Below, piece after piece: positions 53,317 through 63,748 of a DNA stretch of 64,000 bases. Under the pieces are notes generated by a model. That model did no database searches, was not told the DNA's origin, and saw nothing but the letters and a program-made list of their open reading frames with translations. A program made the translations under genes and the position numbers. Source of the DNA: Candidatus Latescibacterota bacterium (GTDB lineage Bacteria > Latescibacterota > UBA2968 > UBA8231). Numbering within the stretch: the first letter of the stretch is position 1; every line of letters starts with the position of its first letter. Where the stretch lies: NCBI GenBank assembly GCA_965261395.1, contig OZ253462.1, positions 2,912,001 to 2,976,000 of the forward strand. The letters run 5' to 3'.

Positions 53317-56300
53317 CGGCTCATCCCCGCGTGTGCGGGAACATATTGCAGAGAGTCGCGGCGTAACAACTTCACCCGGCTCATCCCCGCGTGTGCGGGG
53401 AACATTTAATAGTTTGCCACATAATGTGGTTAACTAGCGGCTCATCCCCGCGTGTGCGGGGAACATACAATGTGAAATCTACGCTGGGGCACCGCATCCG
53501 GTTCATCCCCGCGTGTGCGGGGAACATCACCATTCGCAGATCGTAGTCGTTCACGCTAACGGTTCATCCCCGCGTGTGCGGGGAACATCAGGTTCATCGG
53601 ATATAGAGCGCCAGCGGCGACGGTTCATCCCCGCGTGTGCGGGGAACATTTGGTAGGCAACCCCCCATCATTGGACCAGGCCGGTTCATCCCCGCGTGTG
53701 CGGGGAACATATGCTGATGCTGGCGAGGGCGAAGGGGTTCATCCCCGCGTGTGCGGGGAACATCTCGACAAGGCCCGCGACCGGTCAGCCAAGACCGGTT
53801 CATCCCCGCGTGTGCGGGGAACATATGGTGGAGGTCATAGTCACCCTCTCCAAGCTCGGTTCATCCCCGCGTGTGCGGGGAACATTTGCAGATGTTGACG
53901 GGTGCATAATGCGTATCCGGTTCATCCCCGCGTGTGCGGGGAACATGATGTAAATTTCCTGTGTCGCGCGCCGTCTGCCGGTTCATCCCCGCGTGTGCGG
54001 GGAACATTTCACGCAGGCGGCCAAAGAAGGCAACGTCCGCGGTTCATCCCCGCGTGTGCGGGGAACATTCCCTGGTCTGCCGAACCGAATCGCTAAAATC
54101 CGGTTCATCCCCGCGTGTGCGGGGAACATATTAACGCTCATAGCATCCAGCCCCACCACGCCGGTTCATCCCCGCGTGTGCGGGGAACATGGGGTCAGAA
54201 TACCCATCAGGATATTTCCTTTCGGTTCATCCCCGCGTGTGCGGGGAACATCGCCCCAAGTGGTGCATCATGCACACCAAGGTCGGTTCATCCCCGCGTG
54301 TGCGGGGAACATTGCTCAATCCAAGTCGAACCCGATCTTTCGAGCGGTTCATCCCCGCGTGTGCGGGGAACATCGGCCTCAGTCCCTCTACAATAACATG
54401 ACCATCGGTTCATCCCCGCGTGTGCGGGGAACATCAACAGCTCGAAGACCTCATCGTCAGACAACTCGGTTCATCCCCGCGTGTGCGGGGAACATTGGTG
54501 GTGGTGGCCCTCCGCCGCCGATGTAAACGGTTCATCCCCGCGTGTGCGGGGAACATAGATTATGTATATATCGGCGCAACATCTACGCCGGTTCATCCCC
54601 GCGTGTGCGGGGAACATACCATGGCAACGCAAAACGTATTTCAGATCATCGGTTCATCCCCGCGTGTGCGGGGAACATCCACTTCGGTTTTTTTGAACGC
54701 GAAGGCTTCCCGGTTCATCCCCGCGTGTGCGGGGAACATCCACTTCGGTTTCTTCGAACGCGAGGGTTTTCCGGTTCATCCCCGCGTGTGCGGGGAACAT
54801 ACGACCTAGGATACAATTACAACTCAGCCGGCCGGTTCATCCCCGCGTGTGCGGGGAACATCAAGTCTCAGCCGAGCCCCATTTCTTCTCAGACGGTTCA
54901 TCCCCGCGTGTGCGGGGAACATAAAAACTCGCCTTTTTTGATCGCGTTGAACGCCGGTTCATCCCCGCGTGTGCGGGGAACATAAGCTCGGCCCCATGAC
55001 GTTGCGGTACTCTAACGGTTCATCCCCGCGTGTGCGGGGAACATCTGGGGCTTGAGCCTATGTCGGGGTCGCTTATCGGTTCATCCCCGCGTGTGCGGGG
55101 AACATTCGCAATGCCTTATTGCTTTGCGCGTCAACGTCGGTTCATCCCCGCGTGTGCGGGGAACATCTCCCTGTCGTCAAGGTGAAACAAGGTGCGACCG
55201 GTTCATCCCCGCGTGTGCGGGGAACATTTCGCGCAAGCCCTTTGCCGCTTCTGCGATCTCGGTTCATCCCCGCGTGTGCGGGGAACATTTCGTCAAAGCC
55301 TTTATGCTCGCCCGCAAAGCCGGTTCATCCCCGCGTGTGCGGGGAACATATGCTTGTAACCTTCTGAATGAGGTTGCAAGGCGGTTCATCCCCGCGTGTG
55401 CGGGGAACATTTCCCTATCGAGCAACAGCAGAGAATCAAAGTCGGTTCATCCCCGCGTGTGCGGGGAACATATCTCCTTCTTGACCGCGCTCGCGTCGAT
55501 GTCCGGTTCATCCCCGCGTGTGCGGGGAACATTTCGCATCTGAGCGCGTCCAGCACAAATTTCCCGGTTCATCCCCGCGTGTGCGGGGAACATTTTCGTC
55601 AAAGCCTTTATGCTCGCGTCGATGTCCGGTTCATCCCCGCGTGTGCGGGGAACATATGCAAGCAACCTGCTGAATGAGGTTGCAAGGCGGTTCATCCCCG
55701 CGTGTGCGGGGAACATCTATTGTATTGATTGTATTGAAACGCGAAACACGGTTCATCCCCGCGTGTGCGGGGAACATTAGGGTCAGTATCCTGCGAAGCG
55801 ATGCAATCCTGGTTCATCCCCGCGTGTGCGGGGAACATAAGCAACTGACGTATTGTATTGACGCGAAACACGGTTCATCCCCGCGTGTGCGGGGAACATT
55901 GTAAAGGAATCGCTCGCCGACTCGCTGCCGACGGTTCATCCCCGCGTGTGCGGGGAACATATCGCCAGTCAATGCAGTCCGGTAGAGTCAAGCGGTTCAT
56001 CCCCGCGTGTGCGGGGAACATACGGCGAAACTGCTCGACACCTATGTCGATAGCGGTTCATCCCCGCGTGTGCGGGGAACATACGCCGGGACAATCCGGC
56101 AAAACGCTTTACCACGGTTCATCCCCGCGTGTGCGGGGAACATATACAGATCAGATCAGATCAGATCAGATCAGCCGGTTCATCCCCGCGTGTGCGGGGA
56201 ACATTTTAAAATAGTGGTGGAAAGTGCTTGACAATGCGGTTCATCCCCGCGTGTGCGGGGAACATAAAAGGCCAGCGGTTAAAATTTAACTATTGACCGG

Positions 56301-57424
56301 TTCATCCCCGCGTGTGCGGGGAACATGTTTAACTCCCCTCACGGGAGGAGCCTATCACCGGTTCATCCCCGCGTGTGCGGGGAACATGCGCGCTCGGGGC
56401 TTTTCTCGATGCGCGTTTTCGGTTCATCCCCGCGTGTGCGGGGAACATAGGTAGGCCGTGTACGGCCCGGTTGCCGATACCGGTTCATCCCCGCGTGTGC
56501 GGGGAACATCGGTTTAACTGCCATTGCTGGCAGCCCATCACCGGTTCATCCCCGCGTGTGCGGGGAACATTGCGATAGGGAGCGCGTTTATTGTGCGTGT
56601 TACGGTTCATCCCCGCGTGTGCGGGGAACATTCTCAATTATTGCTTGTGTTGGTATCGGCTACCGGTTCATCCCCGCGTGTGCGGGGAACATCGGTTTAA
56701 CTCCCGTCGCCGGGAGCCCATCACCGGTTCATCCCCGCGTGTGCGGGGAACATTTCTGCAAAGCCTTTATGCTCGTCCTCAGGGCCGGTTCATCCCCGCG
56801 TGTGCGGGGAACATTGTAAAGGAAACGCCCGCCGGCTCGTCGCCGACGGTTCATCCCCGCGTGTGCGGGGAACATTCCGGTTGGAACAAGGTAGGTTTTT
56901 CCTGCTACGGTTCATCCCCGCGTGTGCGGGGAACATGTGTGGGCTGAACTTTGGATCAGCCCGTGCGGCGGTTCATCCCCGCGTGTGCGGGGAACATCCT
57001 TGTGAGTGTGCTGCGTTTCCTGGGCTGAGCGGTTCATCCCCGCGTGTGCGGGGAACATAATATCGGCCAGCTTGGCCGATACAATGTTCGCGGTTCATCC
57101 CCGCGTGTGCGGGGAACATTGAGCAACTTCGGCAATCAGCAAGGCAAGGGCCGGTTCATCCCCGCGTGTGCGGGGAACATCCTCTATCGTCAAGTATCTC
57201 TGGGTGCTGCGTCGGTTCATCCCCGCGTGTGCGGGGAACATCGGGTGCTAATGGCGTTGAATAGTGCGAGTAGCGGTTCATCCCCGCGTGTGCGGGGAAC
57301 ATCTGGTATTCTTCGTCCAGGTGTTTGCGAGCATCGGTTCATCCCCGCGTGTGCGGGGAACATAATACCCGCACTCACATGAGGTAAATTTCAATCGGTT
57401 CATCCCCGCGTGTGCGGGGAACAT
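53317..57424 (-). CRISPR. Type I-E CRISPR array, 68 repeats/67 spacers, repeat ATGTTCCCCGCACACGCGGGGATGAACCG
   Basis: 29 bp repeat, 61 bp period, mostly 32 bp spacers; degenerate repeats at the 53317 end, leader next to cas2; counted by eye. Confidence 0.98.
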
Positions 57425-57529
57425 ACTTAATCGTAACTGCTTGCTACAGTTTAGGTTATATGCCATGCAAAATAGCTACCGACTATTTGACCCCCGATTC
57501 ACCCACTCCACATATGCCGAGAACATACT
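57425..57529 (-). promoter_or_regulatory. CRISPR leader
   Basis: AT-richer non-coding segment between cas2 stop and first repeat. Confidence 0.75.
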
Positions 57530-57808
57530 TCACTCAGGCAAAAAAGATACGAGTCGAAGACCGTCAAAATCCACAGGTATCCGGCGGTTTGTGCCAAAGG
57601 TTTCAAACTCAAACCCCGCGTCATTGGGGGCGGCCCAAGCAATCACAGCATCACCGTCGCCGATGAGCTCGCACACATTGTCGCGGATCATAGCGCGGGT
57701 CTTTGCCGAGTAGTTGCCGATATAGACACCGGCTCGAAGTTCCAGAAGCCAAACCGCGAGCCGGCCCCGCAGGCGCGGCGGCACATTATTAGTCACCACT
57801 ATCATCAT
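57530..57808 (-). CDS. cas2: Type I-E Cas2
   Basis: VPPRLRGRLAVWLLELRAGVYIG, PVDFDGLRLVSF. Confidence 0.96.
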   Translation of the reverse strand: MMIVVTNNVPPRLRGRLAVWLLELRAGVYIGNYSAKTRAMIRDNVCELIGDGDAVIAWAAPNDAGFEFETFGTNRRIPVDFDGLRLVSFLPE

Positions 57809-58752
57809 CCTCGATGGCCCTCATCTCCGCTTGAAGGTGGATCGGCAAAGGCCGGGCCTACCGCATCATCTGGCATTTTCGGCGGCGGCAACTCGCCCGC
57901 TGCGAGCACTTCTCCGATGGTTGGAATCAGTCGCCTGAGCAGCTTGGTTCTGCGGAACGTGTCCCGACACGCCAAGCGCACTTCGCGCACAGGCTCGGCA
58001 GAACGCCCCTTCGCGTGCTGTCCCGCAATGCGAAACGCTGTCGGCACCGCCGTCTCAAATTTGAATAAATCGGCAATGTCGTACACAAAGGAGAGGGGTT
58101 TACCAGTATGCAAGAAGCCGACTGCTGGGGCATATCCAGCCGCGAGCACGGCGGCTTCCGTAATGCCGTAGAGGCAGGCAGTTGCTGCCGAGAGGCAGCG
58201 GTTGGGCACATCGGAGAAGTTCCAATCCGAAGGATCGTAGCTGCGCCTTTTCCACTGTACTCCAAACTGCCGCGCCAAATTCTCATAAAGCGCACGTACA
58301 CGCGCCCCCTCAATTCCGCGAAGCTGTTCGACAGAACGGCGTTGCGGCGCTCGCTCGTCAAATCGGATTTGATACATCCGCCGCACGATCTTCAGCCGAG
58401 CGTCGGGGTCAAGCGCGAGGCGGCACTGCCACAGAAGCCTGTCGGACCGGGCACCTCCCGGCTGACCAGCCGCGTATAGGCGCACCCCGGCTTCACCGAC
58501 CCATATCAGCAAAGTACCGACCCGTGCGGCGAGTGCCACTGCAGCATGACTGACCCGCGCACCAGGTTCGAGCATGATGCAAGCCAACCCGCCAACGGGG
58601 ATGTGCGTCCGCACCCCCTTTACATCTACGAGCACAAAAGCTCCATCGAGTACGTCGAGTTGGCCCTTCTCCACAAAAACGATAGAGGTGCGGTCCTTTA
58701 TGGGGATCGGCTTGGGGGGCGGAGCACCCGGCATTCTGTCAGGGCTAGCCAT
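57805..58752 (-). CDS. cas1: Type I-E Cas1
   Basis: MLEPGARVSHAA, GEAGVRLY, LRGIEG, GFLHTGKPLSFVYDIAD. Confidence 0.97.
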   Translation of the reverse strand: MASPDRMPGAPPPKPIPIKDRTSIVFVEKGQLDVLDGAFVLVDVKGVRTHIPVGGLACIMLEPGARVSHAAVALAARVGTLLIWVGEAGVRLYAAGQPGGARSDRLLWQCRLALDPDARLKIVRRMYQIRFDERAPQRRSVEQLRGIEGARVRALYENLARQFGVQWKRRSYDPSDWNFSDVPNRCLSAATACLYGITEAAVLAAGYAPAVGFLHTGKPLSFVYDIADLFKFETAVPTAFRIAGQHAKGRSAEPVREVRLACRDTFRRTKLLRRLIPTIGEVLAAGELPPPKMPDDAVGPAFADPPSSGDEGHRG

Positions 58753-58775
58753 CAAGCGATCCTGCGTATAAGCGA

Positions 58776-58865
58776 TGGTTCATCCCCGCATGTGCGGGGA
58801 ACACAGAGGTAGTCATCAGGCGATCCTGCGCATGAGTGGGTCATCCTCGCGTGTGCGGGGAACAT
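58776..58865 (-). CRISPR. Mini-array (2 repeats, 32 nt spacer) at the cas6e/cas1 junction
   Basis: Repeats at 58776-58804 and 58837-58865; flanked by duplicated CTGCGTATAAGC. Confidence 0.92.
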
Positions 58866-59608
58866 CTGCGTATAAGCATCAGGCCGCAGCCAAATGCCTT
58901 GCCGCGCCCGAATCCCTGCCGAAGGCGGGCGAGAAACGAGTTAGGCTCGGTTATGGTCAAAGCACCTTTGAGGTCGAATATGCCCAAAGTGCCGAATTTC
59001 CCACCGCGCCGTGCGAAACGCTCGGCTCGATAGCCTTCGAGCATCAGTGCGTCAAGGCAGAATCCGTATGCTTCGGCCCGCGCCGCTAGCCAGTCGTAGG
59101 CCGCCTTTTTGGCAAACTGCATCCGATACTTGGCGCGGTTGAGGGATTCATCCCCGCGTGTGCGGGGAACATTCTTGAGCAAGTCCATGGCCACATCGCA
59201 GCGTTGCCGTATGGCCGGTTCATTCCCGTGTGTGCGAGAAACTTTCCGATCGACCGTGGCGTTAAGGCGCAGATCGAACGCCAGCCGGTCTCCTGGCGAG
59301 AGTGTCGGCTCGAAGGGCTTCGTCTCGATAGCGAAGAAGGGAGAGTCTTCCAAAGGCTTGGGGCCGAGAAGATAGTACCGCCCGCGCTGGCGGTCGGCCC
59401 GCCAAAGAAACGCGGATTTCGGCGTACCGGCAGTCCGGCTCTGCTCTACCTCAGTACGCACATTTGGCGGGATGACCGTCCAGATCAGCCGGTGATCTAC
59501 CGCGAGGCGGTCAGACGACTTTGATGGCTGAAGGACCTGTAGCAGGGGAGCTATGTCTGCGGCGTCGCGCCGGAGCGTAAGACGCGAAAAGTGGAGTGGC
59601 TCACTCAT
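58841..59608 (-). CDS. cas6e: Cas6e (Cse3) crRNA endoribonuclease
   Basis: HRLIW, LAFDLRLNAT, C-terminal GFGRGKAFGCGL G-loop. Confidence 0.95.
   Translation of the reverse strand: MSEPLHFSRLTLRRDAADIAPLLQVLQPSKSSDRLAVDHRLIWTVIPPNVRTEVEQSRTAGTPKSAFLWRADRQRGRYYLLGPKPLEDSPFFAIETKPFEPTLSPGDRLAFDLRLNATVDRKVSRTHGNEPAIRQRCDVAMDLLKNVPRTRGDESLNRAKYRMQFAKKAAYDWLAARAEAYGFCLDALMLEGYRAERFARRGGKFGTLGIFDLKGALTITEPNSFLARLRQGFGRGKAFGCGLMLIRRCSPHTRG
59144..59244 (-). CRISPR. Two CRISPR repeats embedded in frame within cas6e
   Basis: 59144-59172 matches consensus 27/29, 59216-59244 matches 24/29. Confidence 0.88.
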
Positions 59609-60321
59609 TGCGAAGCCTCCTCTTGGTCAGTGGGAACGTATTCGTATTCGCGCCGTTGCCCGAACTGCCAGCTCGTGCGGTCGCCCGGCTCGTCCATCCG
59701 CAGTCGCATCCGCAAGGAAGCATCGAGAGGACCGAGGTCCGCCCGATCCTCCACGGCGATTAGGCCATTCGGCCCATCGCTATGGCGCTTGAACGCATCA
59801 ACGACCGTTTGTGCTTCAATGATCTCCGGCGCGAGTGGGTGGGACAGTGGGCAGGACTTGCGCCCTAAATACAATGTATAAGCTGGCTTCTCAAACCCAG
59901 CTTTGAGGTCCCGCAACGAGTATCGTCCGCCCGATATGGCTCGGTAAGCCGCCTGATAGCGCACATCTGTGCGGTACTCTCGGTGGGTGATACTCGTCGC
60001 AAGGTCCAAGGGATGGGAAAGTGCCTCCGCTCTAGTTCGGGGATGTCCCTTGGCCGAAGGCAGCGACTGGTAAGTGTGAAAATCCGTCACCAACGTCCCG
60101 GCGCACAGGGTGCGAGTAGCGACGCGGAAAGAGGCAGCAAGCGCCCGCTGCCCTTCCGCATCGGCGCGATCAATACCCAGCGCCGCGCCCGCCATCCCCA
60201 AAAGGGCAGATCGCGTTGGACGGTCGGCCGTGCCACGCCGCACATTGCCTGCCTCTTCGCCGAAGCTGGCAAAGGGTGCGGCCAAGGTAATAATTAACCA
60301 TTTCCTCGGTTCACCATTCAT
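59605..60321 (-). CDS. cas5e: Cas5e
   Basis: APFASFG, PTRSALLGMAGAALG, DFHT, LYLGRKSCP. Confidence 0.95.
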   Translation of the reverse strand: MNGEPRKWLIITLAAPFASFGEEAGNVRRGTADRPTRSALLGMAGAALGIDRADAEGQRALAASFRVATRTLCAGTLVTDFHTYQSLPSAKGHPRTRAEALSHPLDLATSITHREYRTDVRYQAAYRAISGGRYSLRDLKAGFEKPAYTLYLGRKSCPLSHPLAPEIIEAQTVVDAFKRHSDGPNGLIAVEDRADLGPLDASLRMRLRMDEPGDRTSWQFGQRREYEYVPTDQEEASQ

Positions 60322-60353
60322 TTTAGTCCCTTCGGGAATATATGTGGTTCGTG

Positions 60354-60443
60354 CGGTTCGTCCCCGCGGATACGGGGAACATCCTACGTGTAGTTGGATG
60401 TCGTCGCTTCAATCCGGTTCATCCCCGCAGGTGCGGGGAACGT
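60354..60443 (-). CRISPR. Mini-array (2 diverged repeats, 32 nt spacer) between cas7 and cas5
   Basis: Repeats at 60354-60382 and 60415-60443 with intact stems. Confidence 0.9.
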
Positions 60444-60462
60444 TTTGCCAAATAGCAAATTG

Positions 60463-61521
60463 CTACAGTTCCTCCGCTGCGAAGGCGGCTAGCTCCTCCA
60501 ACATGGCACTATCCTCTTCACCTACATGGAGTTCGCTGGCTTCCCAATCGTCGTCGTAGGTCTTCGCAAAGGCGGTACGCTGCTTCTTGAGTACCTTTAC
60601 GGACTCCCCGAGTTGGTCTTCCGATTTTACCGGCTTGGTGAAGGCACTAGCCAAGCTGCGAGGTTGGCTATCCCCGCGCTCTAACAACATGTATTCGGCG
60701 CGTACGTGATTGGCGAAGCTGTTTTTCTTACCGGAAGGCGATGCGGTCGCCGCAGCGCGTACTAGCGCGGAGAGCGCACGGCCTGCCAGTTCTGTATCGC
60801 TCGCAAGATTTTCCAGCAGCAGGACCCTATTTACGCAGATGTAGAGATAGAAGACGCCAGCGCCGAAACCCGCCTCTCCGATGAAACCCGCGCCCGCATC
60901 CTCTTCTGGGGTCTTCAGATCGTCAACAGCCGTGTAGTAGTCATCTTCAATATCGACTCGGTTGGTGGTAAAGGCATGAGCCACTTGCACGGCGGCATCG
61001 CGGTTGAAGTCGGGGTTGTCAGCCAACATGCGCCCGAACATAGCAATGTCCACGGCACCGTCGGCAGTGCTTAGGACCTGTTTCGCCAGTTCCTTTTCCT
61101 TCGGTAAGGTTTCCCCGCTCAGTGCCTTTTCTGCCAAATCGAATGCAGCAGCGCGTTCCTCCGGCGAGATGAAGGCTAGCTGTTCGGTATAGGCCGGATT
61201 TGGGTCTTTCTCATTCTTTACTTTACCGAACAGAGCAGCGATGGTCCGGGCGATTTCGAGCGCCTTGTCCTCCGAAGCACCCTTTTCTAGCAGATGCTCT
61301 CGCACCTTGTCGCCCATACGCTGCGTGCGCTCGCCTAGCTTTCCCGTTAGGGCGGACCGGAAAGCGTCGTCCGTGCGGATGGCGCGTTTGAGGGCTTGGC
61401 TGGAAATGCGCATCCGCGACACACCGCCGATGAAAGCGGTCTTGGGACGGCCGAGGTCGTCTCGGTTGGGGTTAGACGGTGGATAGGCTGTCAGAACGTG
61501 CATTTGCACAAAGCGGCTCAT
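60463..61521 (-). CDS. cas7: Cas7 (Cse4)
   Basis: PSNPNRDDLGRPK, RISSQALKR, DIAMFGRMLA, DYYTAVDD. Confidence 0.97.
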   Translation of the reverse strand: MSRFVQMHVLTAYPPSNPNRDDLGRPKTAFIGGVSRMRISSQALKRAIRTDDAFRSALTGKLGERTQRMGDKVREHLLEKGASEDKALEIARTIAALFGKVKNEKDPNPAYTEQLAFISPEERAAAFDLAEKALSGETLPKEKELAKQVLSTADGAVDIAMFGRMLADNPDFNRDAAVQVAHAFTTNRVDIEDDYYTAVDDLKTPEEDAGAGFIGEAGFGAGVFYLYICVNRVLLLENLASDTELAGRALSALVRAAATASPSGKKNSFANHVRAEYMLLERGDSQPRSLASAFTKPVKSEDQLGESVKVLKKQRTAFAKTYDDDWEASELHVGEEDSAMLEELAAFAAEEL

Positions 61522-62090
61522 AGTTGAGTCTCCTCTTGGGGTTGGGTGTTCTCTGCGGCATCGGTCCGCCGCGTGTGATAGTAATCAAAGGTCCATTTCT
61601 GCCGAGTCTGGTCGTTAAAGAAAAGCACATCGCCGATAAAGCGAGGAACGTCGAATGGCGCATCGCCCAAAATAGCAAGGGTCCGGCGCAGTGCCCGTGC
61701 GAACATGTCCACATCAGTGCCATCCTTGAGCAGGTTGCTGAAGCGCATGGGCGACAGGCGTGGACGGGCGTCGCCTTTGGGGATGGAACCATCCCACGTG
61801 AGGCCCAAGGCGTCAGCGAAGGGGGGGAGATGGGCGGTCCTCTCGGAGGGTTTAACCCGCGCAAGGGCCATAGCCAGCACGGCGAGGCGCTGCTCAAGCG
61901 CGTGGCCGGCGGTAGCCTTTTCATGCACACTGGCGATCAACCTGTGGGTTTCTGGCTCTAAGAGGGCGTCGAATACGCTTTCGCAGCGCTTCAGCCGCGC
62001 CCGTGCACCCCGGTCTCCGTGGTCCGCGTGAAGCGATACCCACCAGTTCACCACTGCATTGACGGTAGGGTTATTTCGGTTGAGCTGCAT
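61518..62090 (-). CDS. cse2: Cas11 (Cse2) small subunit
   Basis: DRGARARLKR, LSPMRF, W..DYY; position in operon. Confidence 0.9.
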   Translation of the reverse strand: MQLNRNNPTVNAVVNWWVSLHADHGDRGARARLKRCESVFDALLEPETHRLIASVHEKATAGHALEQRLAVLAMALARVKPSERTAHLPPFADALGLTWDGSIPKGDARPRLSPMRFSNLLKDGTDVDMFARALRRTLAILGDAPFDVPRFIGDVLFFNDQTRQKWTFDYYHTRRTDAAENTQPQEETQL

Positions 62091-63748
62091 TAAGCGGTCT
62101 CCTTTTTGGTTTTGGATTTTTTCTCTGGCAAAGGAAGTTCGAGCTTGTCGTAAAGCGACTTGCTCTGCTTGGTCCAGCCAGCAAAGGTTGCGTTCAAGAT
62201 GCCGTAGGCATTGACGATTGTCTTGGCCTTCTCGGCGTCTTGCAAGGGCACGGGTGCCAGTCGGTCAAAAGTCGCAAGGGCTGCGCGGCGCATGATACCT
62301 AGCCAGTGCCGTGCGAGAGCGGTCTGGTCGAAGCCCCCATCTTCGGGCATTTCTTGGAGCAGATCGTCGAGCAGGTGGTGGAATTGGTCCTCGGTTGCGT
62401 CGAAGAAATCAGCCCGCGCTTGGTCGAGAATCCCCTTATCGTTTGAGGCATTCTTCTGGCCGCTGAAAAGTGCCTTTTTCAAGGCTGTTAACAACTGAGA
62501 AACCGCTTGATCGGCGGCTTCGGAGAAATGTCGGGCGAGATCGTCGAGAGCCTGTTGTTGATCGGATGTATTCGCCAGATGCAAAGGCTCCTCGGCGATG
62601 AGATAGGCGATTGCTTCCATGTTGTTCATGGCCCAACCGCCAACGCGGATGCGAGCATCGGCCGCTTGTTTATTCTGGCTAAGGGAATGGGAGCGATTAT
62701 TCTTGGAGAGCTTGATATTTGTGGGCTGTTCAGCCAGCTTGCCATCCTTGCTCCCTACCGTGACGGCAACCCAGTCTCGATAGCCAAAGCGTCCTGATTT
62801 TGGCTTGGCCGAATACGGCTCCCCTGCCTCTTTCAGGCGGCGGTAGGGCGTCAGCGGATGCTGCCATAGCCCATAATTTGTGCCGTAGGGCCTCTGGATA
62901 AATCCGGTGACCAGCGGTTCTTTTCTGCCGGTCATGGAGCAGATGCCCGGCTCGCTGGAAAAGACTAGCTGGATGCGGCGCGGCATACCGAAATACGCCT
63001 GCAAGGGGTGGGCGTCTGCTAGAGATACAGTACGACTTTTTTCCGATGTGAGTGTCGGGGCCATCCAAGGCAGGGCCTTGGGCAACTCATCTATTGGGAG
63101 TCGTTTATCGCAAGGCACCACATTGGCGAAAATTTTGTGCCACAAAGGCACGGGCGTTGCATCGTCATTAGTCGCCGGAACGACCAGTGCCGTCAAAGGC
63201 CCGCCTCCACGCATGGAAGTGCGGTTCCCGGCACCGCCGGCCGGCGCGTAGGCTTGCAGGGTGTACAGCGTCATGGCCGCAGCCGGTAGGCCAAGGGCAG
63301 CATAGCGGTTGCGGTGAGTCAATAGGTCCGAGTTTTTGCGCTGGCCGTTTTGCCCTGGTGTGTCGATGAGCAGTAGTTCAATAGGAGTTTCGTTGCCTTG
63401 CAGGGGCTCATAGTCCTGTAGGAAGCGCGGCCCTTCGCCGTTGAGATAGAAGGCAGAAACAAGAGGGGCGAGCTTTTCGGCGAGCGCGTCTCTATCCGGC
63501 GGATTGGTCCAAAAAGGACGCCAGTCGTCCTCTTCGCGGATATCGAAGGCCAACGAAATCACGCCGATGCAGAACTCGAAGCTCGCCATGTTGAAATCCG
63601 GGCGCGGCCAGTTAAACTCGACCGGGTAGTCTTCATCCAAGCCGTTGCTTTTGGGTCCAGCCACTAGTTCGGGAAAGGCAAGCCATCTCTGTGCTCCAGA
63701 TCGCATGACGACCGGGAGAAAGGGATCACTGAGCAGATTAAAAGTCAT
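62090..63748 (-). CDS. cas8e: Cas8e (Cse1) large subunit
   Basis: FNLLSDPFLPV, PRPDF, F.L.GEGPRFLQD, APAGGAG..MRGGGP, MPRRI, HPLTPY. Confidence 0.95.
   Translation of the reverse strand: MTFNLLSDPFLPVVMRSGAQRWLAFPELVAGPKSNGLDEDYPVEFNWPRPDFNMASFEFCIGVISLAFDIREEDDWRPFWTNPPDRDALAEKLAPLVSAFYLNGEGPRFLQDYEPLQGNETPIELLLIDTPGQNGQRKNSDLLTHRNRYAALGLPAAAMTLYTLQAYAPAGGAGNRTSMRGGGPLTALVVPATNDDATPVPLWHKIFANVVPCDKRLPIDELPKALPWMAPTLTSEKSRTVSLADAHPLQAYFGMPRRIQLVFSSEPGICSMTGRKEPLVTGFIQRPYGTNYGLWQHPLTPYRRLKEAGEPYSAKPKSGRFGYRDWVAVTVGSKDGKLAEQPTNIKLSKNNRSHSLSQNKQAADARIRVGGWAMNNMEAIAYLIAEEPLHLANTSDQQQALDDLARHFSEAADQAVSQLLTALKKALFSGQKNASNDKGILDQARADFFDATEDQFHHLLDDLLQEMPEDGGFDQTALARHWLGIMRRAALATFDRLAPVPLQDAEKAKTIVNAYGILNATFAGWTKQSKSLYDKLELPLPEKKSKTKKETA

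What the first reader, a model, noticed from the sequence alone, without database searches (positions are those of the whole stretch)
56327..56724. Three spacers capture a covarying GNRA hairpin shaped like a type I-E repeat (candidate RNA anti-CRISPR targets)
Seen in crRNA sense: GTGATGGG-CTCCCG-GCGA-CGGGAG-TTAAACCG (56693-56724), GTGATGGG-CTGCCA-GCAA-TGGCAG-TTAAACCG (56510-56541) and GTGATAGG-CTCCTCCC-GTGA-GGGGAG-TTAAAC (56327-56358). The flanks are fixed, the stems covary and all loops are GNRA. A 6-bp stem, tetraloop and 8-nt tail ending AACCG is the architecture of the local repeat (CCCCGC-ACAC-GCGGGG-ATGAACCG). Established: phages encode solitary repeat units (Racr). Inference: the host repeatedly acquired immunity against a conserved structured element in invaders, possibly a repeat mimic or an undescribed ncRNA or ssDNA origin.
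Basis: partly seen in the sequence, partly recalled or inferred. Interest (0 to 1): 0.7.

Follow-up and report, generated by a model that had tools for sequence, protein, structure and literature searches.

The report
CRISPR spacers copied from twister ribozymes
Three spacers in this bacterium's CRISPR array are copies of the first half of a known self-cleaving RNA gene (the twister ribozyme) carried by phage-like invaders, so the covarying hairpin is an ordinary ribozyme stem and not a mimic of the CRISPR repeat.

Summary
Three 32-nt spacers (56327, 56510, 56693; crRNA sense is the minus strand) share fixed flanks around a covarying hairpin: 3 matches against 0 expected.

The interpretation does not hold. 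The same flanks-plus-hairpin occur in 7 metagenome contigs. There they run on into a second hairpin with a GUCCAAAG loop. Rfam scores such elements as type-P5 twister self-cleaving ribozymes (RF02684); 16 of 19 natural elements pass the curated cut-off.

The spacers align base for base with the ribozyme's 5' half: P2 strand, GAUGG core, closed P1 hairpin, UAA cleavage site and returning P2 strand. The fixed flanks are the catalytic core and the covarying stem is P1.

Several carrier contigs are phage-like, encoding terminase, portal or Sak4. The actual invaders were not found. The spacers alone are too short to score against Rfam.

The trio is one of five related-spacer families in this type I-E array. 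This is a known RNA family captured by ordinary adaptation, so interest is low to moderate.

The parts
56693..56724 (-). Spacer A, the newest of the three. In crRNA sense: positions 1-2 GU (P2 5' strand, completed by the repeat's last G at 56725); 3-7 GAUGG core; 8-25 P1 hairpin (7 bp, loop GCGA); 26-28 UAA (homologue of the twister U-A cleavage site); 29-31 ACC (P2 3' strand); 32 G.
56510..56541 (-). Spacer B. Same register and same flanks as A. P1 differs from A by two compensatory pairs (positions 11/22 and 14/19) and one loop base (17); loop GCAA.
56327..56358 (-). Spacer C, the oldest of the three. Core variant GAUAG, also seen in natural twisters L130 and L078. P1 is 2 nt longer, so the spacer ends inside the P2 3' strand (AC).
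53377..57424 (-). Type I-E CRISPR array of 66 spacers. The leader end is at 57425 next to cas2. Variant repeats lie at the far (old) end, 53377 and 53438.
57530..63748 (-). Complete type I-E cas block in the window: cas2e 57530-57808, cas1e 57805-58755, cas6e 58841-59608, cas5e 59605-60321, cas7e 60463-61521, cse2 61518-62090, cse1 62090-63748.

Best explanation
The three spacers are DNA copies of the first 32 nt of type-P5 twister self-cleaving ribozyme genes. The ribozymes were carried by one or more invading elements, most likely phages.

Shown:
- The array belongs to a complete type I-E system.
- The spacers match the 5' half of natural twister-P5 elements base for base.
- The fixed flanks are the P2 strands, the GAUGG core and the UAA cleavage site. 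The covarying hairpin is stem P1, which is closed by a loop in the P5 permutation.

Inferred:
- Cas1-Cas2 took a 33-bp fragment each time at the same position. A PAM-like trinucleotide ending in G sits just upstream; in natural elements this is often the TAG stop codon of a small upstream ORF. That G is also the first base of P2.
- The three copies came either from paralogous ribozymes in one invader or from diverged relatives. Three of 9 loci examined carry two copies.
- The crRNA seed (positions 1-8, GUGAUGGG or GUGAUAGG) lies in the near-invariant ribozyme core and the mismatches lie in P1. A spacer against one copy could therefore still bind or prime on another copy, which would favour repeated acquisition.
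- In the invader, the ribozyme probably cuts the transcript directly after a small ORF. This is mRNA processing, the role proposed but not proven in the literature.
For: - All 7 continue into a second hairpin with loop (G/A)UC(C/U)AAA.
- Rfam cmscan at gathering threshold calls Twister-P5 in 4 of those 7 (44.2-50.9 bits, cut-off 37.6). It also makes 12 calls in 9 further loci found with a looser pattern (40.4-59.7 bits).
- Anatomy table: all 19 natural elements and the spacers share P2a, GAU(G/A)G, P1, UAA and P2b. P2 pairs 3 of 3 in all 19 natural elements and in spacers A and B; spacer C is cut off before the last base.
- Alignment of the 22 sequences: T3, G4, A5, G8, T29, A30, A31 and A32 are invariant, spacers included.
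- Covariation: 95.1% of 246 cells are paired, against 67.2% in shuffles (0 of 500 reach it) and 24-49% when the partner is slid. Ten of 12 pairs show double changes.
- Phage context: terminase large subunit and DNA methyltransferase in L132; portal protein in L038, Sak4-like protein in L050, amidoligase in L018; glutamine amidotransferase in L018. Eight loci are IMG/VR viral contigs.
- L078 also holds a pistol ribozyme (62 bits) and sub-threshold twister-P1-like and hammerhead-like matches within about 2.5 kb.
- Literature: a U-A cleavage site in twister (PMC6154101, figure legend seen). Bacterial twister and hammerhead ribozymes lie near phage genes and are suggested to process mRNAs (PMC6765202, section 13 read).
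Against: - The spacers alone give no Twister-P5 hit. cmscan over the array at E<=10 found none. cmscan on the isolated 33-nt stretch of spacer A gave only a chance-level HgcC match (E 0.97). Only 32 of about 58 positions survive, so the 3' catalytic half of the invaders' elements is inferred, not seen.
- Three of the 7 metagenome elements (L050, L078, L018) gave no cmscan hit even at E<=1.
- The natural elements were fished with patterns derived from the spacers, so agreement in the flanks is partly by construction. The independent part is the 3' domain and the Rfam score.
- No protospacer or invader was found. There was none in the own genome, none among 75 relatives, and none in GenBank phages; the plasmid search listed only 48 of 102 records and was swamped by repeat matches. 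IMG/VR gave 0 hits for 4 other spacer families.
- The PAM of this system is unknown.
Confidence: 0.88

Rival explanations
1. Repeat mimic or RNA anti-CRISPR: the invader encodes a hairpin shaped like the type I-E repeat that titrates Cas6e or Cascade, and the host targets it.
For: - The layout is the same: a 6-bp stem, a 4-nt loop and an 8-nt tail.
- Right-anchored identity to the local repeat is 14-16 of 29. Best ungapped identity is 15-16, against shuffle means of 11.2-11.6; 0.8-2% of 500 shuffles reach it.
- By homology, twister cleavage would leave a 5'-OH RNA starting AAACCG. This resembles the last six bases of the repeat-derived 5' handle AUGAACCG (what the sequence shows; cleavage chemistry recalled).
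Against: - The stems are unrelated in sequence.
- The tail is the ribozyme's UAA, P2 3' strand and first linker base. It is the same in contigs of 34-66% G+C, so it does not follow any host's repeat.
- In natural elements a P4 hairpin follows after 6-14 nt, not a 32-nt guide plus a second repeat.
- 16 of 19 elements pass the Rfam twister cut-off.
Confidence: 0.03
2. A different structured element that shares only the twister 5' half. This could be a decayed or pseudo ribozyme, or another hairpin element without catalytic activity.
For: - Only 32 nt are preserved.
- Three of 7 metagenome elements with this 5' half did not reach E<=1 against Rfam, so weak or degenerate versions exist.
Against: - All 7 hairpin-bearing pattern matches, found without asking for any 3' sequence, carry the (G/A)UC(C/U)AAA-loop hairpin downstream.
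- All invariant 5' nucleotides are kept in all three spacers.
- Compensatory changes in P1 between A and B argue for selection on the fold.
Confidence: 0.06
3. Ordinary coding sequence, a terminator, or chance similarity.
For: - A and B read through in sense frame 3 (DGLPATGVKP and DGLPAMAVKP), and 3 of their 5 differences would fall at third codon positions.
- Four other spacer families in the array show that homologous sites are resampled in general.
Against: - Spacer C has a 2-nt longer stem between the same flanks, and stops in all three sense frames.
- No U-run follows the hairpin; the next bases are UUAAACC.
- 3 matches were observed against 0 expected.
- In natural loci a mechanically called ORF ends within a few nt upstream of the element rather than running through it.
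Confidence: 0.02

Closest known systems
Type-P5 twister self-cleaving ribozyme (Rfam RF02684, clan CL00120)
   Same: P2 helix, GAxGG core, closed P1 hairpin and UAA cleavage site in the same order and spacing. Natural elements with the identical 5' half pass the family's curated score.
   Different: - The window holds only DNA copies of the 5' 32 nt inside a CRISPR array. There is no P4, no pseudoknot partners and no catalytic potential.
- The subtype reads GGUGAUGGGC...GUUAAACC, where the Rfam consensus printed reads cGCAGAGgG...UAAUGCg.
RNA anti-CRISPRs (Racr, solitary repeat units in phages; recalled, no paper read here) and phage CRISPR-like regulatory RNAs (bioRxiv 10.1101/2024.10.29.618823; listing and start of abstract seen)
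   Same: A small structured RNA gene in phage DNA with a stem-loop-tail outline like a repeat.
   Different: - Identity to the local repeat is only 14-16 of 29.
- The sequence is fixed by ribozyme constraints across hosts.
- No guide-like segment follows.
Repeated sampling of the same protospacer in type I-E adaptation (hot spots and priming; recalled from the E. coli literature)
   Same: Same register and same strand three times. The array holds four further families of related spacers.
   Different: The resampled site here is a non-coding ribozyme core rather than a coding hot spot. Priming was not tested.

Membership tests
Twister-P5 ribozyme (RF02684) | P2 helix bracketing the core and P1 | tested here: met
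   GGU/ACC pairs in spacers A and B, with the first G supplied by the repeat or PAM position. Spacer C is cut after AC. P2 is 100% paired over 22 sequences, with four pair types at its first position.
Twister-P5 ribozyme (RF02684) | Conserved 5' core nucleotides and the UAA at the cleavage site | tested here: met
   T3, G4, A5, G8, T29, A30, A31 and A32 are invariant in all 22 aligned sequences, including the 3 spacers.
Twister-P5 ribozyme (RF02684) | Closed, covarying P1 hairpin directly 5' of the cleavage site | tested here: met
   The five counted P1 pairs are 97.2% paired and all show double changes. A and B differ by two compensatory pairs.
Twister-P5 ribozyme (RF02684) | 3' domain: P4 hairpin whose loop forms the pseudoknots | not testable with these tools
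   Not retained in a 32-nt spacer. Present in 19 of 19 natural elements with this 5' half. P4 is 88% paired.
Twister-P5 ribozyme (RF02684) | Score at or above Rfam's gathering cut-off (37.6 bits) | tested here: not met
   The spacers alone give no hit, as expected for 32 of 58 positions. Of the natural full-length elements, 16 of 19 pass and 3 gave no hit at E<=1.
Twister-P5 ribozyme (RF02684) | Self-cleavage at the U-A step | not testable with these tools
   Needs transcription of a full-length element.
RNA anti-CRISPR / solitary repeat unit | Close sequence similarity to the host's CRISPR repeat | tested here: not met
   14-16 of 29 right-anchored. The stems are unrelated; the only shared run is AACCG in A and B.
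RNA anti-CRISPR / solitary repeat unit | Binding to or processing by Cas6e or Cascade | not testable with these tools
   Biochemical assay needed.
Intrinsic terminator | G+C-rich hairpin followed by a U-run | tested here: not met
   The hairpin is followed by UUAAACC in all 22 sequences.

The most novel reading that the evidence does not exclude
The GUUAAACC subtype of twister-P5 is more than a transcript-processing device. After self-cleavage it would release a downstream RNA with a 5'-OH end reading AAACCG. That end has the same chemistry as, and nearly the same sequence as, the 3' part of a type I-E crRNA 5' handle (AUGAACCG here). Phages could thus make Cas6e-independent handle mimics that load into or jam Cascade, and the host answers by targeting the ribozyme gene itself.

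A milder version: because the crRNA seed lies in the invariant catalytic core, these spacers are hard to escape and they prime on every other ribozyme copy.
Probability: 0.04. Interest if true: 0.8.

Novelty: new member of a known kind. Interest (0 to 1): 0.27.

Why it matters
It removes a false lead. The covarying hairpin is stem P1 of a known ribozyme class, not an RNA anti-CRISPR.

What remains is modest but useful:
- The array is a host-side record that twister-bearing mobile elements attack this lineage. Its 16S rRNA is at most about 80% identical to any full-length match listed from the plasmid collection. None of its 75 relatives carries such a ribozyme.
- The biological role of bacterial and phage twister ribozymes is still open (PMC6765202, section 13). 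Three things give concrete handles for testing an mRNA-processing role: a stop codon abutting the ribozyme, paired copies flanking small ORFs, and CRISPR targeting of the catalytic core. They also allow a test of whether conserved RNA cores are escape-proof CRISPR targets.

Tried and rejected
- Exact flank pattern in IMG/VR: 7 loci, none with a hairpin, so chance matches.
- Own genome: only the three spacers match. No spacer of the array has a self-match (best 18-20 nt).
- 75 genomes of the same family, which is also the whole order:
  - no match to the flank pattern;
  - no Twister-P5 by Rfam model under stricter filters, and the tool warned that nothing rang in its control genomes either, so this is weak evidence of absence;
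  - no match to a pattern that includes the 3' domain;
  - 8 matches to a loose 5' pattern, none with a hairpin and comparable to the reversed-pattern control.
- BLAST of 2.1 kb of the array against GenBank phages and PLSDB plasmids: only repeat-driven or chance hits. The plasmid list showed 48 of 102 records.
- None of the other spacers matches the 7 twister-bearing metagenome contigs (best 14 nt). Those contigs are relatives of the element, not the invaders.
- IUPAC consensus patterns of four other related-spacer families: 0 IMG/VR hits each.
- Genome-contig scan with the 3' domain added: 2 loci, 1 real (L130, a MAG contig) and 1 chance.
- Rfam on the array and on spacer A alone: no twister hit.
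- Small ORFs upstream of the ribozymes: no informative Pfam or PHROG family.
- Host identity: 16S against plasmids gave about 80% identity for full-length hits. One record at >=99% was counted but not listed. I did not pursue the taxon further.
- Coding reading rejected because of the 2-nt stem length difference and the stops in spacer C.
- Not run: complex prediction, structure tools, sequencing-run tools and the protein database searches. None bore on the question.
- Supplementary files of papers were not opened. The gene-association tables of the twister discovery papers, which might list this subtype's neighbours, were not seen.

Full report
**What is in the window.** Positions 53377-57424 hold a CRISPR array of 29-nt repeats and 66 spacers. 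It is the only array in the 6.55-Mb, 59% G+C, single-contig genome.

The adjoining minus-strand genes are a complete type I-E set by NCBIfam: cas2e, cas1e, cas6e, cas5e, cas7e, cse2 and cse1. The crRNA sense is therefore the minus strand. The leader end is at 57425, and variant repeats mark the old end.

In crRNA sense A (56693) and B (56510) share the flanks GTGATGGG and TTAAACCG; C (56327) reads GTGATAGG and, being cut off earlier, ends at TTAAAC. The flank pattern occurs 3 times in the window against 0 in 100 shuffles, and nowhere else in the genome.

A and B differ at five positions: two compensatory pairs and one loop base. With the preceding repeat G, A and B fold into an outer 3-bp helix enclosing an 8-bp hairpin, with z-scores of -4.15 and -3.46. 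C folds less well (z -1.6) and its best fold has a hexaloop, so the GNRA claim is firm for two of the three.

**What it is.** The same flank pattern was scanned in public collections.
- IMG/VR gave 7 loci, all without a hairpin.
- Among the 125 loci examined, exactly 7 have a clean hairpin between the flanks (fold energy -7.6 to -16.4 kcal/mol; the next best is -3.1).
- All 7 continue, after AGTTAAAC and a short linker, into a second hairpin whose loop reads (G/A)TC(C/T)AAA. That downstream part was not in the query.

Rfam's covariance models then called type-P5 twister ribozyme (RF02684) above the curated cut-off in 4 of the 7 (44.2-50.9 bits against 37.6). The other three (L050, L078, L018) gave no hit even at E<=1.

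A looser pattern that includes the 3' loop found 8 IMG/VR viral loci and one MAG contig. In these, Rfam made 12 calls, all above the cut-off (40.4-59.7 bits). One of them, L131b, was not matched by my pattern. In total, 16 of 19 natural elements pass.

**How the spacers map onto the ribozyme.** The Rfam alignment printed and my anatomy table agree.
- The base before the spacer (the repeat's last G) plus spacer positions 1-2 form the 5' strand of P2 (GGU).
- Positions 3-7 are the core GAUGG, or GAUAG in spacer C. GAUAG also occurs in natural L130 and L078.
- Positions 8-25 are P1, which in the P5 permutation is a closed hairpin.
- Positions 26-28 are the UAA holding the U-A cleavage step. The cleavage site is named in the Figure 1 legend of PMC6154101, seen.
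- Positions 29-31 are ACC, the 3' strand of P2.

In a MAFFT alignment of the 19 natural elements with the three spacers, eight positions are invariant in all 22.

Pair counts on that alignment:
- 95.1% of 246 cells are paired, against 67.2% in shuffles; 0 of 500 shuffles reach the observed value.
- Only 24-49% are paired when the 3' partner is slid by 1-3 columns.
- Ten of 12 pairs show changes on both sides.
- P2's first pair appears as G-C, C-G, U-A and A-U.

The natural P1 loops vary (UUCG, GAAA and others), so GNRA is not a family trait.

**Limits of that inference.**
- A spacer keeps only 32 of about 58 positions. Rfam therefore finds nothing on the array or on spacer A taken alone.
- The natural elements were found with patterns derived from the spacers, so the flank agreement is partly circular.
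- The independent evidence is that every hairpin-bearing match carries the 3' domain, and that most reach Rfam's cut-off.

**Where such elements live.** The carrier contigs span 34-66% G+C, and none is hit by any other spacer of the array. They are relatives of the invaders' element, not the invaders.

Phage character is clear for several of them:
- L132: terminase large subunit and DNA methyltransferase downstream of the ribozyme.
- L038: portal protein.
- L050: Sak4-like annealing protein.
- L018: amidoligase plus glutamine amidotransferase.

L078 also holds a pistol ribozyme (62 bits) and sub-threshold twister-P1-like and hammerhead-like matches within about 2.5 kb.

In all 7 metagenome loci, a mechanically called ORF of 79-135 aa on the same strand ends 0-4 nt before the ribozyme or overlaps its first bases. 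In the other set, 7 of 12 copies have an ORF ending within about 5 nt. Three of the 9 loci in that set (L130, L131, L136) carry two copies 562-723 nt apart, bracketing small ORFs.

This fits the proposal, still unproven, that bacterial and phage twister and hammerhead ribozymes process polycistronic transcripts (PMC6765202, section 13 read).

**Why three times.** The trio is not unique in the array. Seven spacer pairs are identical at 23 or more positions (of 32-33), where 50 shuffles never exceeded 21. They define five families, of which this is one. The array therefore records repeated encounters with diverged relatives, sampled at the same sites.

For the twister site, the base before the spacer is the first base of P2, usually G. 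In 7 of 19 natural elements the three bases before the spacer start are TAG, the stop codon of the upstream ORF. That trinucleotides ending in AG can serve as type I-E PAMs is recalled, not tested here. This system's PAM is unknown.

The seed end of the crRNA lies in the near-invariant core, and the differences between copies lie in P1. Cross-binding or priming between copies is therefore plausible, but it is inferred.

**The mimic idea.**
- Right-anchored identity of the spacers to the repeat is 14-16 of 29. Best ungapped identity is somewhat above shuffles (0.8-2% of 500 reach it).
- The stems are unrelated. The shared AACCG is P2 plus linker of the ribozyme and is the same in unrelated hosts' contigs.
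- A P4 hairpin, not a guide, follows.
- I give this reading about 3%, and keep a bolder form of it (a ribozyme-made handle mimic) as the novel case at 4%.

**Searches for the invader that failed.**
- No self-targets.
- Nothing in 75 relatives.
- Nothing in GenBank phages, and no spacer-specific hit among the listed plasmid records.
- Nothing in IMG/VR for four other spacer families.
- Literature searches for twister with CRISPR spacers listed no paper holding 'twister ribozyme' together with 'CRISPR spacer' among the 20 shown. One search listed general ribozyme papers only. I therefore cannot say the link is in print, nor that it is absent beyond those two searches.

**Verdict.** The element is a known RNA family, so this is a new member of a known kind, with interest about 0.27.

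Noticed in passing
window 58776-58865, 59144-59244, 60354-60443 (minus strand): Degenerate repeat / 32-43 nt / repeat units sit inside the cas operon at three places:
- between the cas6e stop and the cas1e start;
- inside the cas6e ORF, which is 255 aa against a 208-position profile;
- between cas7e and cas5e.

The first unit's 32-nt 'spacer' (58805-58836) is 26 of 32 identical to the adjacent native cas6e/cas1 junction (58741-58772), and cas6e now ends inside a repeat.

Four relatives (G046, G035, G043, G042) have a contiguous cas6e-cas1 junction without the unit. It looks like a CreR/CreA-type degenerate mini-CRISPR (bioRxiv 10.1101/2023.03.10.532045; passages seen) or an ectopic integration scar.
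   Followed up: partly
window 54679-56846: Besides the twister trio there are four families of related spacers (23-28 of 32-33 positions identical): 55350/55656, 55900/56815, 54679/54740 and 55289/55594/56754.

Spacer 55594-55626 (33 nt) looks chimeric. Its first 15 nt equal those of spacer 55472, and the rest equals spacer 55289.
   Followed up: partly
window 56144-56175: One spacer is almost entirely a pentanucleotide tandem repeat, (GATCT)n in crRNA sense. The older neighbours at 56205 and 56266 are A+T-rich and look like promoter or intergenic DNA.
   Followed up: no
window 53711-53763: Array irregularity: a 24-nt spacer followed by a repeat variant starting GGG, giving a 53-nt unit instead of 61.
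   Followed up: no
L078:3088-5551 (minus strand): Ribozyme-dense stretch in a 34% G+C metagenome contig. It holds a twister-P5-like element, a twister-P1-like match (42.6 bits, below cut-off), a hammerhead-like match (31.4 bits, below cut-off) and a pistol ribozyme (62 bits), all within about 2.5 kb and separated by small ORFs.
   Followed up: partly
L131:6089-6744, L136:3953-4735, L130:6448-7071: Pairs of twister-P5 ribozymes 562-723 nt apart bracket one or two small ORFs of unknown function in viral or MAG contigs. In L136 the two copies share the same P1 but have different P4 stems.
   Followed up: partly
G000:C1:106811-108367 (outside the window): A single 16S rRNA match in the genome. Full-length hits in the plasmid collection are only about 80% identical, so the host belongs to a lineage poorly represented there.
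   Followed up: no
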